Position numbers: made by a program
Shown: positions 6,001 to 9,000 of the stretch, piece after piece
How the letters are laid out: every line of letters starts with the position of its first letter
Position numbering within the stretch: position 1 is the stretch's first letter
Virus record (IMG/VR): IMGVR_UViG_2713897055_000006
Strand: one strand, 5' to 3'
Origin: a virus
Taxonomy: Duplodnaviria > Heunggongvirae > Uroviricota > Caudoviricetes
DNA length: 18,908 nucleotides

Positions 6001-9000
6001 CAGTTGTTCAGGCTGGCTCACGTATTATAACTTATTCCCGAACTACCTTGAAACCGAGTCTTTCCAAGTATTCAATGAATGCCTCAACAGATAACACTAC
6101 ATGATCATCAGGAATTAACGCTGTGTAGGTAATACCCCCATTCTCAACGCGCACAGCATAGAGGCCATCTTCACTAAAAATTTCACGTAATTCTTCGATT
6201 TTCATCAACAGAATCCTTCCAGATAAATAGCACTCCCCCTGTTCGGGGTCCATCCCTCTTCTCCCTGCGCGCTACTTAAGTATTTTTGATTCTATTCTGG
6301 CACCGTCCAAAACTTCAAACACGTTGAAAATAAAAACAAAAAACCCGCCGAAGCGGGTATACTCAAACAATCTGGAAAATATTTCTTGGATTTGTAATAG
6401 GTCTGTTGATGGAGAACAACTCACGAATTAAATCTTGGCTCAAGCCAGTTTTCATAAGAATTCTTAGCCAGGTTGCATCATCCAGCATTTCAATCGCCTC
6501 GGCCAGCATGCCGGGTTCTTCAGGGCGCAAAAGTTCATCACCAGGTTCAACTCTCGTATACCCTCTGGAATTAAGATGCATATAGCCAGTTCTTGCCTGT
6601 TCCTGGGTCAATAAGCCTAATGCGCTGGCTCGATAAATACACATTTTAAGGCTGATTTTCCATCTAAGTTTAAATTCAACCAGAGCATTCCAGTCGAATT
6701 GCTTACCTCGTATTCGTGGAAATTCTTTAATGAAAGATAACCTGGGAACTAATAAGGCGCTCGAAAAGTGATCGGCTTGTGATTCCGTAAGTTTATCACC
6801 TGTCGTTATGCCCTCATGCATTACTAAATGCCCTAATTCATGACCTAAATCAGAGCGAAATCTACATATGCTTTTTTTTAACATTGTTCCTGATGATAAC
6901 AGGCCTGTTATTGTGAACAGTAAAAGCATCAACACGATCATCGACTCCCGTAACATGCGCAACGATTACCCCTAAACTCTCCGCCAATTTAACCATTGAT
7001 GATATAGGGCCAAGACCTAAATTCCAGGCACGGCGACAATCTTCTGCCACTCGCTCAATATCATTCGGAGTAAGTAATTCAGCCCCTGGGTGCTCCGGTA
7101 TGTTAACGTCAGGAAATTCGATTTCACCTTCAACAGCAGAAATTATAATATTAAGAATCTCAGCCCTGGCCAATACACTATTAGTCAGCGTTTGAGTCCT
7201 GGACTTCTTACTCCGAAAATGGCAGACATCACTTTCCAGAGCGTATTTTCGTTCAGTAAAAAGAAAACTGGACTTAATCATAAGCGCTGAAGATATTAAC
7301 TCAAGACATTGCTCCGATGGCCTGCACCCCTTCTCCAGTTTGCTAACGAATTGCTTTGTCTTGCCAATTTTTTTCGGCTAACTCTTCACAAGAAAGCCCA
7401 ACAGCCATTCTCGCTAGTTTGAGCTTATCACCCCGATACTCAGTGAAGTTATTCACCTGATGTTCCATCACTGCTCACATCCAAATCTTTATCCTTCGTA
7501 CGCCGACGAAGAGGCACCTTATTAATCTCCGCTTCGTCAGGGAGTGTGTTATAATCAAGAGGCATAAGCGGCATCGATGCTGTAGATTGATGAGAAACTA
7601 TACTAATCTGAGCACCATAAGTATTAAATCCAACAAGAGCTACCTCCCAACGAGGCAGTGTGGACTCTAATTCACCATCGCCCTCTTCGGATAAAAAAAG
7701 GCTCAGCTATGACTCGCCATGTAATATCTTGCTCAGCCTCAACATCACCAAACAATGAGAGCTGCTCATACTCTACTTTATTTCGACGCAGACGATGTTT
7801 CTTTTTGGGGTTATTAATGCAATCTTTGGTAAATTGTAGCGGAACTTTATTTAAAGCAACTACATAGTCCAACCCCTTGGAAATCATCTCAAGGCCAGGA
7901 ATTGCATCTTCATTTTGAATAAGATGATTTCTGACCCAATCATAAGCCCTTACACCTTCAGACCAGTTGCTGTCTAATGCGTGCTTATGATAGTACAGCT
8001 GCTCAAGTACGTTAGCGATCTCCGCCAACAAGTGGCGAACATAGTTTTCTGCAAGATAAGGTTGAAATTCCCAACAAGGAGCTAACTGATTTTCATTCAT
8101 TTCAAGTTTCGCTTTTTTTAGAATTCGTAAACCACATATTTTCGCATTTTTCTATTTTTGTCAACCAGACTAATGCAAAAACCCGCCGAAGCGGGTTAAG
8201 TGCGGGTGCGTTGAGGATGCCTGGCACATCAGAGGTGGCGGGAGATTACTCCCCCGCCGGGTCTCTTACTCCTCAGGTTCGTAAGCTGTGAAGACAGCGA
8301 CCTCCGTCTGGCCGGTTCGGATTCGTACCTCGCAGAGGTCTTTCCTCGTTACCAGTGCCGTCACAATGACGGTTAAACAGATGACGATCAGGGCGATTAG
8401 CATCGCCTTTTGCTGCTTCATAGCCTGCTTCTCCTTGCCTTTCGGCACGTAAGAGGCTAACCTACGTGTGTAGAGCATAGATATGGCCTCAGATTAATGT
8501 TAAGCGTCTTGCCGGACGCGTAATGTTAACTGGGGCTTTTCTCTATCTGCCTTTTGGTGTTCATGCCTGAGACAGATAGCCTCAAGCACCCGCTGCAATT
8601 CTACTTAACTCTCCTTTTCCCGCAAACCGTTTTTATCCCCAGCGGCAAATCGAATACACCACCAGCGCCACCGCCATCGCAATTCCTACCGTTGTTAATG
8701 CTTCAGGCCAGGTCATCGTAAAATATCCTCCACGCTTATCAGTCCGTTCCGCTCCAGATAACTCATCGCCTTATCCGGTAATTTGCAGTCTGGCTTCGCT
8801 TTCCTCAGTTGCCAGGTTAACTGCTTTACCAGCATGGTTAACTCATCGACCAGACGCTGATATCCCACTGGTTTGTATTCATGCAATTTACCGGCTGGCT
8901 CTGCTGCCAGCGATACCAGTGCGATTTCCAGAACAGCAATATCCATCTTTTATATGTGCGGATGATGTCATGGTCGATTGTGCCCGGTATGCACAGTCTC

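What the first reader, a model, noticed from the sequence alone, without database searches (positions are those of the whole stretch)
8200..8700. hok/sok-like type I toxin-antitoxin locus embedded in the nin region
A Hok/Gef-family 51-aa toxin with an in-frame upstream mok-like start. The minus-strand leader (GCTTGAGGCTATCTGTCTCAGGCATGAA...) resembles the R1 hok leader, and the 3' region has a fold-back-like GC stretch plus terminator. A Sok-like antisense RNA would lie on the plus strand around 8450-8530 but cannot be defined from sequence alone. Such loci can stabilise the prophage or act in abortive infection.
Basis: partly seen in the sequence, partly recalled or inferred. Interest (0 to 1): 0.45.

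Follow-up and report, generated by a model that had tools for sequence, protein, structure and literature searches.

The report
Intact prophage hok/mok/sok toxin-antitoxin locus
This is an ordinary, complete copy of the well-known hok/sok RNA-controlled toxin-antitoxin module (the HokD/HokW type), sitting between the replication genes and the Q antiterminator of an E. coli lambdoid prophage; most E. coli genomes carry it, so it is not new.

Summary
The minus strand carries a 51-aa Hok toxin (8421..8266; Pfam HOK_GEF 81.6 bits) inside an in-frame 70-aa mok ORF (8478..8266). The leader matches Rfam RF01794 at 117 bits (gathering score 59). The 5' end (tac, 8591-8580) pairs with a 3' fbi element (8216-8204). 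A stem-loop (8258-8237) and an intrinsic terminator (8197-8177) follow.

Sok can be placed by homology on the plus strand at 8470-8540. It is 71 nt, with promoter TTGCCT-17-TAACCT, a 15-nt single-stranded tail and a terminator hairpin.

The locus is 94% identical to mokW/hokW/sokW of phage 933W/Sp5, which has been characterised experimentally. Its toxin is identical to K-12 HokD, whose locus lost everything upstream of the hok ribosome-binding site. At least 80% of the locus is present in 3908 of 5426 complete E. coli genomes. RefSeq names only hokD there.

Verdict: already known, low interest. One by-product may be worth following. Across 88 distinct prophage copies, variation is concentrated in the Sok 5' tail, about six-fold above synonymous sites. 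The variants fall into discrete alleles, which may be separate Sok specificity groups.

The parts
8598..8625 (-). Putative hok promoter: -35 TTGCGG (8625-8620), 16-nt spacer, -10 TAGAAT (8603-8598), with +1 at G8591
   Evidence: Read from the sequence. The hexamers are identical in 933W. The +1 is inferred from position 1 of the Rfam model. The consensus scan did not report it because the -35 is weak. Inferred, not shown.
8177..8591 (-). Full-length hok mRNA, about 415 nt
   Evidence: The 5' end is taken from the start of the Rfam RF01794 match and the 3' end from the terminator. The fold is -167.2 kcal/mol with z=-6.4.
8580..8591 (-). tac (translational activator element), GGGUGCUUGAGG. It has three alternative partners: nt 19-29 (metastable hairpin), ucb and fbi.
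   Evidence: tac/fbi is in the minimum-free-energy fold; 5' hairpin in the leader alone; tac/ucb.
8532..8539 (-). ucb / anti-SD box, AAAGCCCC. It pairs with the mok ribosome-binding site in the full-length fold and can pair with tac in the truncated RNA.
   Evidence: G102-C60, G104-C58, G105-C57; a compensatory change in hokB.
8435..8463 (+). Sok promoter: -35 TTGCCT (8435-8440), 17-nt spacer, -10 TAACCT (8458-8463)
   Evidence: Identical to 933W. The -10 is almost invariant in 88 distinct copies and lies outside the bait sequence. In hokW-sokW, mutating this -10 abolished antitoxin activity (PMC8621323).
8470..8540 (+). Sok antisense RNA, 71 nt: a 15-nt single-stranded 5' tail (8470-8484), a long hairpin (8485-8537) and UUUU. 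It is complementary to the mok ribosome-binding site and start codon.
   Evidence: Coordinates transferred from the sokW misc_RNA of AF125520. The register relative to the mok ATG is the same as for K-12 sokC. The fold is -28.6 kcal/mol with z=-5.4. No transcript was observed here.
8266..8478 (-). mok ORF (70 aa, in frame with hok), with ribosome-binding site GAGG at 8490-8487
   Evidence: The site and the ATG are invariant across the common alleles. It is in frame, as in K-12 mokC.
8453..8457 (-). dcb, GCCUC, the partner of the mok ribosome-binding-site region in the 'open' conformation
   Evidence: Consensus structure of the Rfam match. The constrained fold lies 4.9 kcal/mol above the minimum.
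8266..8421 (-). hok toxin gene (51 aa, MKQQKAMLIALIVICLTVIVTALVTRKDLCEVRIRTGQTEVAVFTAYEPEE), with ribosome-binding site AAGGAG at 8436-8431
   Evidence: Pfam HOK_GEF 81.6 bits. The protein is identical to RefSeq HokD WP_000813254.1 and to K-12 HokD, from which the gene differs by two synonymous changes.
8280..8283 (-). UACG at Tyr47-Glu48, the TadA A-to-I editing motif that would recode Tyr47 to Cys
   Evidence: The motif is present in the sequence, and GCTTACGAA is invariant between the window, R1 hok and hokC. Editing of hokD mRNA (6%) and an 'RNA-editing-coded' Cys46 in HokC/D/E are reported in PMC12214031 and in bioRxiv 10.1101/2025.08.07.668861. No stable local hairpin is predicted. Editing was not tested here.
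8237..8258 (-). 3' stem-loop (9 bp, GGCGGGGGA/UCUCCCGCC), the expected protective end of the 3'-processed, translatable mRNA
   Evidence: The role is inferred from R1, where mutations in the equivalent stem destabilise the mRNA (PMC9841398).
8204..8216 (-). fbi (fold-back inhibitory element), CCUCAACGCACCC, complementary to tac
   Evidence: Compensatory partners occur at the same distance in hokB, a Vibrio plasmid and an Aeromonas plasmid.
8177..8197 (-). Intrinsic terminator, AACCCGCTTCGGCGGGTTTTT
   Evidence: It is shared with K-12 hokD but not with 933W, where homology ends at about 8194.

Best explanation
The locus is a complete hok/mok/sok type I toxin-antitoxin module of the HokD/HokW lineage, carried in the early-right (P-to-Q) region of an E. 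coli lambdoid prophage.

Proposed mechanism:
- A weak promoter makes a roughly 415-nt hok mRNA.
- The 5' end of this mRNA (tac) is locked to a 3' element (fbi), and the mok ribosome-binding site is paired to an upstream box (ucb). The full-length RNA is therefore neither translated nor bound by Sok.
- Slow 3' trimming back to the stem-loop at 8258-8237 removes fbi. tac can then pair with ucb, which exposes the mok start region.
- In a lysogen, the unstable 71-nt Sok RNA (plus strand, 8470-8540) pairs through its single-stranded 5' tail with the mok start region. This blocks mok translation and the coupled hok translation, and marks the duplex for RNase III.
- When Sok synthesis stops, mok and hok are translated and the 51-aa Hok peptide depolarises the inner membrane.

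The most likely trigger and role, by analogy with hokW-sokW, is prophage induction, with earlier lysis and greater phage release as the result.

Shown here: every sequence element is present and intact, the predicted full-length fold has the expected pairings, covariation in the family supports them, and the locus is near-identical to a characterised one. Inferred from the family: transcripts, 3' processing, translational coupling, RNase III cleavage, toxicity in this host, and the physiological role.

The confidence of 0.9 applies to the identity and the R1-type mechanism. The specific physiological role (helping lysis on induction) I rate at about 0.45.
For: - Toxin: Pfam HOK_GEF 81.6 bits.
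- Leader: Rfam RF01794 117 bits, full length.
- Full-length fold: tac/fbi is paired and the mok ribosome-binding site is paired to ucb in the minimum-free-energy structure, z=-6.4.
- Alternative fold: forcing tac/ucb costs 11.8 kcal/mol in the full-length RNA but only 2.5 kcal/mol once fbi is removed.
- Covariation: tac/fbi and tac/ucb show compensatory changes in hokB, and tac/fbi in the Vibrio locus; in Aeromonas an fbi lies at the same distance.
- Sok: promoter, start site and terminator hairpin match the annotated sokW of 933W and the register of K-12 sokC.
- Nearest relative: 94% identity to hokW-sokW, for which HokW toxicity, Sok-dependent protection, loss of protection on mutating the -10, partial dependence on RNase III and Hfq, Northern detection of both RNAs, loss of Sok and inner-membrane HokW after mitomycin C, and a two-fold phage-release effect are published (PMC8621323).
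- Toxin identity: the peptide is identical to HokD, which is listed among the previously characterised toxic controls in bioRxiv 10.1101/2025.08.07.668861.
- Conservation: a 100% identical 471-bp copy exists in strain NCCP15648, and 3908 of 5426 complete genomes hold at least 80% of the locus.
- R1 element definitions are taken from PMC9841398.
Against: - No expression data exist for this window.
- Both promoters deviate from consensus, and the consensus scan reported neither.
- Thermodynamic prediction does not make the 'open' tac/ucb form the minimum for the truncated RNA. It lies 2.5-5 kcal/mol above.
- Chromosomal hokA, hokB and hokC loci were reported unable to mediate post-segregational killing (cited), so intact sequence does not guarantee activity.
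- hokW sits near attR in 933W, not in the P-to-Q region, so its physiology may not transfer.
- Tyr47 may need TadA editing to Cys for full toxicity, and hokD mRNA editing was only 6% in K-12.
Confidence: 0.9

Rival explanations
1. The locus is a silent relic. It looks intact but does not kill, as reported for chromosomal hokA, hokB and hokC, and simply travels with the prophage.
For: [quoted passage not shown] Both promoters are weak by consensus. K-12 tolerates a leaderless hokD.
Against: Every regulatory element is present and conserved across 88 distinct copies. Diversity is 0.04-0.07 in the coding region, the leader and the Sok hairpin. The 94%-identical hokW-sokW is active from its native prophage position. 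No indel or stop is present, although neighbouring genes in this window carry frameshifts.
Confidence: 0.1
2. The module works, but its role is prophage addiction. Cells that lose or excise the prophage are killed because Sok decays faster than hok mRNA, which stabilises the lysogen.
For: This is the classical role of R1 hok/sok on plasmids. The mRNA architecture needed for delayed activation (tac/fbi, 3' processing stem) is intact.
Against: This has not been shown for any prophage hok. Chromosomal homologues failed post-segregational-killing tests. In Sp5, the phenotype found for the deletion was delayed lysis and fewer released phage, and growth was normal without induction.
Confidence: 0.2
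3. The module works, but its role is abortive infection. A superinfecting lytic phage shuts off host transcription, Sok decays, and Hok kills the cell before the invader matures.
For: R1 hok/sok on a high-copy plasmid reduced T4 plating by 42% and plaque size by about 85% (Pecota and Wood 1996, cited). hok genes are four-fold enriched in prophages.
Against: hok is not enriched near defence systems (section heading). The R1 effect was modest and came from a high-copy plasmid. No data exist for the HokD/HokW type.
Confidence: 0.15

Closest known systems
mokW/hokW/sokW of Stx2 phage 933W and Sakai prophage Sp5 (AF125520; Takada et al. 2021, PMC8621323)
   Same: A 523-bp stretch (window 8194-8716) is about 93% identical (92.5%; 94% over the 457 bp matched). 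The hok and Sok promoter hexamers, tac, ucb, Sok hairpin, fbi and 3' stem-loop are shared. Both have a 71-nt Sok and an in-frame mok, and both have the same 27-aa ORF upstream.
   Different: There are four amino-acid differences at the Hok C-terminus (TAYEPEE here, VDYESEK in HokW). Six substitutions are clustered in the first 17 nt of Sok, so predicted cross-pairing of the tail drops from about -30 to -10 to -14 kcal/mol. The genomic position differs: P-to-Q region here, next to attR in 933W. 933W lacks the terminator at 8197-8177.
hokD (relF) of the E. coli K-12 Qin cryptic prophage
   Same: The Hok protein is identical. The DNA is 97.7% identical over window 8176-8435, which includes the hok ribosome-binding site, the coding region, the 3' stem-loop, fbi and the same terminator. 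The context is also a lambdoid prophage carrying DicF.
   Different: In K-12, homology stops just upstream of the hok ribosome-binding site. tac, ucb, the mok start, Sok and its promoter are replaced by the 3' end of relE. The window therefore carries the complete form of what K-12 holds as a remnant.
hok/mok/sok of plasmid R1 (parB)
   Same: The gene order and RNA logic are the same. The 5' GGnGCTTGAGGCT box, ucb AGCCCC, the Sok promoter position, the AAGGAGAAG hok ribosome-binding site, the GCTTACGAA Tyr-Glu motif and a tac-complementary 3' box are all present. An R1-type leader from a present-day IncF plasmid matches the same Rfam model at 88.9 bits.
   Different: Hok is only about 43-45% identical. 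mok is in frame with hok here, as in mokC, whereas by my recollection of the R1 sequence it is out of frame there. The Sok hairpin is 16 nt longer than the Rfam consensus. The host element is a prophage rather than a plasmid.
hokC (gef)/mokC/sokC of the E. coli chromosome
   Same: mok is in frame. The Rfam score is similar (118 bits). The Sok 5' end lies 8 nt downstream of the A of the mok ATG in both.
   Different: It is a core-chromosome location, and in K-12 the 3' end is cut by IS186. DNA identity is about 80%.

Membership tests
[quoted passage not shown] | A membrane peptide toxin of about 50 aa belonging to the Hok/Gef family | tested here: met
   HOK_GEF E=2.9e-23, 81.6 bits against a cut-off of 22, covering profile positions 1-42 of 42.
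[quoted passage not shown] | The structured hok mRNA 5' leader | tested here: met
   RF01794 scores 117.1 bits against a gathering score of 59, covering model positions 1-157 on the hok-sense strand.
[quoted passage not shown] | An upstream overlapping mok reading frame with its own ribosome-binding site | tested here: met
   ATG at 8478 with GAGG at 8490-8487, in frame and 19 codons upstream of hok. The site and the ATG are invariant in the common alleles. Translational coupling was not tested.
[quoted passage not shown] | A cis-encoded antisense Sok RNA covering the mok translation-initiation region, with a single-stranded 5' tail and a terminator hairpin | tested here: met
   A homologous promoter (TTGCCT-17-TAACCT), start site and hairpin plus UUUU at 8470-8540. 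The fold has z=-5.4.
[quoted passage not shown] | Long-range tac/fbi pairing that closes the full-length mRNA | tested here: met
   An 11-12 bp pairing is in the minimum-free-energy fold. Against a shuffled 5' end, 4 of 300 shuffles did as well for the window and 0-1 of 300 for 933W, hokB, Citrobacter, Aeromonas and Vibrio loci; the R1-type, hokC, hokE and L017 loci were not significant in the unrestricted search. Compensatory changes occur at a constant distance of 344-382 nt.
[quoted passage not shown] | Alternative ucb pairings: ucb with the mok ribosome-binding site (closed) and tac with ucb (open) | tested here: met
   The mok site is paired to ucb in the full-length minimum-free-energy fold. 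tac/ucb is possible with a compensatory U-to-C/A-to-G change in hokB. The open form lies 2.5 kcal/mol above the minimum in the truncated RNA and 11.8 kcal/mol above it in the full-length RNA. Actual refolding was not observed.
[quoted passage not shown] | 3' exonucleolytic processing to a translatable truncated mRNA, and RNase III cleavage of the Sok/hok duplex | not testable with these tools
   Only the protective 3' stem-loop (8258-8237) can be seen. Partial RNase III dependence is published for hokW-sokW.
[quoted passage not shown] | Toxicity of Hok and neutralisation by Sok | not testable with these tools
   Shown in the literature for HokW/SokW. HokD is listed among the previously characterised toxic controls.
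HokD/HokW prophage lineage | Near-identity of toxin and locus to hokD and hokW, and residence in a lambdoid prophage | tested here: met
   The protein is identical to HokD. DNA identity to hokW-sokW is 94%. The prophage context has a cI/cro-like pair, O/P, RusA, Q, tRNAs and DicF.

The most novel reading that the evidence does not exclude
The 15-17 nt single-stranded 5' tail of Sok, which is complementary to the mok start region (8470-8486), may be a specificity determinant that has diversified into discrete alleles among prophage hok/sok copies. There are at least six common alleles; the window carries allele 'A' and 933W allele 'C'. If so, co-resident prophages carry mutually orthogonal Sok/hok pairs, and each prophage's toxin answers only to the loss of its own antitoxin.

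A linked idea concerns the unexplained loss of Sok on induction. hok usually lies co-directionally inside a phage operon. Sense read-through from the induced early operon could silence the convergent Sok promoter.

The evidence does not exclude either idea. Relaxed constraint on this segment is the simpler alternative for the first.
Probability: 0.35. Interest if true: 0.45.

Novelty: already known. Interest (0 to 1): 0.13.

Why it matters
As an annotation it matters little. hok/sok is the textbook type I toxin-antitoxin system. The phage version has been annotated since the 933W genome record (AF125520) and was characterised in 2021, and RefSeq already names the toxin hokD at this position.

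Three practical points follow.
- Automatic annotation records only the toxin gene. mok, Sok and the regulatory RNA elements can be added at the exact coordinates given here.
- The Rfam 'sok' hit marks the hok leader on the toxin strand, not the antitoxin.
- This copy is the intact form of the truncated K-12 hokD locus.

If the allelic hypervariability of the Sok tail reflects selection for orthogonality, it would explain how genomes hold up to nine copies without cross-protection. It would also supply a natural set of orthogonal antisense pairs.

Tried and rejected
- **Promoter scan.** It found neither the hok nor the Sok promoter at its threshold. Its single promoter-like hit (minus strand, 8503..8474) is within chance expectation (1 found, 0.8 expected), so I disregarded it.
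- **Low-threshold Rfam search of 8100-8750.** It added only sub-threshold chance hits (ceN48, rsmX, isrK).
- **K-12 hokA, hokC and hokE for the tac/fbi test.** They were unusable because IS150 or IS186 cut their 5' or 3' ends, or because the fetched locus ended too early. The first R1-type plasmid locus, L005, had IS150 upstream and was replaced by L006.
- **R1-type tac/fbi search.** The unrestricted search picked a distant site. Restricted to nt 300-430 it recovered CUGAAGCGCC.
- **Constrained fold.** It used a mis-registered tac/ucb pairing (G5-G56), and its conclusion that the open form costs 12 kcal/mol was wrong. The corrected value is 2.5 kcal/mol.
- **TadA motif hairpin.** Folding 8262-8300 gave nothing better than shuffles.
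- **Co-residence test for Sok alleles.** Only four isolate genomes had two copies, and three of them carried different alleles. That is about what allele frequencies predict by chance (about 0.84), so the test is uninformative.
- **Genome-contig scan.** It returned only 8 stretches: E. coli, Shigella, Mixta and probable contaminant MAG contigs.
- **Literature searches.** They found no report of Sok-tail allelic variation in prophage copies. Older subscription papers are not covered.
- **27-aa upstream ORF as part of the module.** I considered and dropped this idea, because only about 27 of 127 copies have it.
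Full report
**1. What is in the sequence**

On the minus strand, ORF 8266..8478 encodes 70 aa. Its last 51 aa start at ATG 8421 and read MKQQKAMLIALIVICLTVIVTALVTRKDLCEVRIRTGQTEVAVFTAYEPEE. The ORF matches Pfam HOK_GEF over the whole profile (E=2.9e-23, 81.6 bits, cut-off 22). The upstream ATG at 8478 is in frame and is preceded by GAGG (8490-8487). The hok ATG is preceded by AAGGAG (8436-8431).

A scan of the whole window against Rfam gives a full-length match of RF01794 ('sok') at 8591..8416 on the minus strand, at 117.1 bits against a gathering score of 59, E=1.6e-26. 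A permissive local scan adds nothing credible. The only terminator-like site in 8050-8800 is on the minus strand at 8197-8180, followed by a T run.

**2. What the Rfam hit means**

The model ends in the hok AUG and matches the hok-sense strand in every locus tested. In K-12 hokC the curated sokC RNA is annotated on the opposite strand from the hit. The hit therefore identifies the hok mRNA leader, whose sequence includes the Sok-complementary segment. It does not identify the antitoxin transcript.

**3. Where Sok is**

The window is 94% identical to the mokW/hokW/sokW locus of phage 933W. Transferring the sokW misc_RNA through the alignment places Sok on the plus strand at 8470-8540 (71 nt).

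- Upstream lie TTGCCT (8435-8440), a 17-nt spacer and TAACCT (8458-8463). Both hexamers are identical in 933W.
- The -10 is nearly invariant in 88 distinct copies, although it was not part of the bait used to collect them.
- In hokW-sokW, substitutions in this -10 abolished protection (PMC8621323).
- The 5' end lies 8 nt downstream of the A of the mok ATG, the same register as sokC relative to mokC.
- The RNA folds into a 15-nt free 5' tail, a long hairpin and UUUU (-28.6 kcal/mol, z=-5.4).

It covers the mok ribosome-binding site and start codon but not the hok start, as in the R1 model.

**4. The mRNA switch**

The definitions of tac, fbi, ucb and dcb are taken from PMC9841398.

*Full-length RNA.* The 415-nt RNA (8591 to 8177) folds at -167.2 kcal/mol (z=-6.4). 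G1-G11 pair with 8204-8215, which is the tac/fbi stem. The mok GAGG is paired to the CCCC of the ucb.

*Nascent leader.* The leader on its own forms a 5' hairpin between nt 3-13 and nt 19-29. This corresponds to the metastable structure described for nascent R1 hok mRNA.

*Truncated RNA.* Forcing tac/ucb costs 11.8 kcal/mol in the full-length RNA. Once the RNA is cut back to the 3' stem-loop (8258-8237), the cost falls to 2.5 kcal/mol. An earlier estimate used a mis-registered constraint and should be ignored.

*Covariation.* The pairings are supported by changes elsewhere in the family.

| Locus | tac | fbi | ucb |
|---|---|---|---|
| Window | GGGUGCUUGAGG | CCUCAACGCACCC | AAAGCCCC |
| hokB | GGGUGCCUGAGA | UCUCAUGGCACCC | AAGGCCCC |
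| Vibrio plasmid | GGGUGCUCUUGG | CCAACGAGCACCC | – |
| R1-like loci | GGCGCUU | GAAGCGCC | – |

In every case the fbi lies 344-382 nt from the 5' end. Refolding, 3' processing, coupling and RNase III cleavage cannot be observed with these tools.

**5. Context**

The window is collinear at 99.6% with a prophage of E. coli ABU 83972. On the window's minus strand the order is:

- dicB/DicF;
- cI-like, cro-like and cII-like genes;
- O-like and P replication genes;
- a run of small genes;
- hokD;
- two genes, then DUF968, RusA and Q;
- a methyltransferase and tRNA-Ile/Arg/Arg.

The 'nin region' description is therefore fair, and hok is co-directional with the early-right operon. RefSeq annotates only hokD here, with no mok and no Sok.

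**6. Relationship to known loci**

- *K-12 hokD (relF).* It encodes the identical peptide and shares 97.7% of window 8176-8435, including fbi and the terminator. Homology stops just upstream of the hok ribosome-binding site, where the 3' end of relE begins. The window carries the complete form of that truncated locus.
- *933W.* Homology spans 8194-8716 and breaks just before the terminator. There the cassette lies next to attR rather than between P and Q.
- *Frequency.* At least 80% of the 471-bp locus occurs in 3908 of 5426 complete E. coli genomes. The median is 2 copies and the maximum 9. A 100% identical copy exists in strain NCCP15648.
- *Surveys.* A recent survey finds hok in almost 80% of Enterobacteriaceae genomes and four-fold enriched in prophages (bioRxiv 10.1101/2025.08.07.668861).

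The finding is correct and already known.

**7. Function**

For the 94%-identical hokW-sokW the following are published (PMC8621323):

- HokW is toxic and SokW protects. Protection depends partly on RNase III and Hfq.
- Both RNAs are present in the lysogen.
- After mitomycin C, SokW disappears and HokW appears in the inner membrane. This depends on RecA and occurs about an hour before the endolysin appears.
- Deleting the locus delays growth arrest by about 40 minutes and halves phage release.

I take this as the most likely role here. Prophage addiction and abortive infection are untested alternatives.

A further layer is probable. Codon 47 is UAC followed by G (8283-8280), the TadA editing motif. 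It would recode Tyr47 to the Cys that other Hok proteins encode directly. hokD mRNA is reported edited at 6% in K-12 (PMC12214031).

**8. By-product: a hypervariable Sok tail**

I collected 107 full-length copies from IMG/VR using an exact 27-mer bait; 88 of them are distinct.

| Region | Nucleotide diversity |
|---|---|
| Sok tail (8470-8484) | 0.33 |
| Four-fold degenerate sites of hok | 0.054 |
| Sok hairpin | 0.042 |
| Leader | 0.065 |

In 8470-8486, 11 of 17 sites segregate, against 6 of 26 four-fold sites (Fisher p=0.01) and 62 of 350 other transcript sites (p=4e-5).

The variants form discrete alleles. The mok ribosome-binding site and ATG stay fixed across the common alleles. Between alleles the tail differs at 37% of sites, while the rest of the locus differs at 4.2%. 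Predicted tail-to-target pairing falls from about -30 kcal/mol for cognate pairs to -10 to -14 kcal/mol between the window and 933W alleles.

Co-resident copies often differ, for example in Shigella flexneri SFBU1023. However, the four testable genomes do not exceed chance expectation.

The result has several limits:

- the copies are related to each other;
- the bait biases the sampling;
- the segment is short;
- relaxed constraint could give the same pattern, because any mutation in a cis-antisense pair stays complementary.

I found no report of this in the searchable literature.

**9. Orientation**

In a crude ORF-based count, hok is co-oriented with its flanking genes in 78 of 100 upstream flanks and 83 of 87 downstream flanks. 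The authors of the hokW study state that the cause of Sok loss on induction is unknown. Sense read-through from an induced early operon into the convergent Sok promoter is a testable explanation. It is inference only.

**10. Verdict**

The element is a complete member of a textbook family and is already annotated, as hokD and hokW, in public records. Interest is low. The Sok-tail alleles are the only part that might repay further work.

Noticed in passing
window 8467-8486 (Sok 5' tail / mok start region); IMG/VR loci L018-L137: Variation among 88 distinct prophage copies is concentrated here. Diversity is 0.33 against 0.054 at four-fold sites, with at least six discrete alleles. The tail differs by 37% between alleles and the rest of the locus by 4%. 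These may be Sok specificity groups, or the segment may simply be under relaxed constraint.
   Followed up: partly
window 8416-8591 (-); L004 902-1054: The Rfam RF01794 'sok' model matches the hok-sense leader strand in every locus, opposite to the curated sokC of K-12. A hit therefore marks the toxin mRNA leader, not the antitoxin strand.
   Followed up: yes
window 8633-8716 (-): A 27-aa hydrophobic ORF (MTWPEALTTVGIAMAVALVVYSICRWG) starts in an ATGA overlap with the upstream gene. It is part of the 523 bp shared with 933W. It is present and open in only about 27 of 127 copies (13 nucleotide variants) and has no Pfam hit.
   Followed up: partly
window 3903, 6879, 7374, 7699, 8950-8951, 14966, 15404: Compared with E. 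coli ABU 83972 there are extra bases in A/T homopolymer runs. Those at 8950-8951, 7699, 7374 and 6879 frameshift three genes flanking hok; the effect of the others on coding was not checked. The pattern suggests sequencing or assembly error rather than decay. The hok locus itself has no indel.
   Followed up: partly
window 8280-8283 and 8324-8327 (-): There are two UACG motifs of the kind edited by TadA. One is at Tyr47 and would recode it to Cys. The other is at the third position of Val32, where editing would be synonymous and where 933W has G in the DNA. No stable local hairpin is predicted around the Tyr47 motif.
   Followed up: partly
window 17638-17689 (+), 1524-1772 (-), 1-114 (-): Other Rfam matches in the window are DicF sRNA (76.7 bits), three tRNAs (Ile/Arg/Arg in the collinear RefSeq record) and the 5' half of STnc100, which is cut by the window edge.
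   Followed up: no
window 8176-8200 compared with L001 about 3283 and L003: Homology with 933W ends just after fbi, so 933W lacks the terminator at 8197-8177. K-12 hokD has that terminator, and the low per-site variability at 8178-8197 (about 0.1) suggests most IMG/VR copies keep it too. The hok cassette therefore has at least two different 3' junctions.
   Followed up: partly
L016 (Citrobacter sp. Y3 plasmid) 1-647: It has a relB-relE-hok arrangement like K-12 relBE-hokD, so the relBE fusion upstream of a hok gene is not unique to the Qin prophage.
   Followed up: no
IMG/VR loci L018-L137, flanks of hok: hok is usually co-oriented with its neighbouring long ORFs, in 78 of 100 upstream flanks and 83 of 87 downstream flanks by a crude count. 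This is consistent with read-through from phage operons.
   Followed up: partly
L139-L142 (MAG or draft contigs labelled Collinsella, Xanthomonas pisi, Scatousia, Haemophilus): Short contigs in non-enterobacterial assemblies carry this E. coli-type hok leader exactly. They are most likely contaminating or mis-binned E. coli prophage DNA.
   Followed up: no
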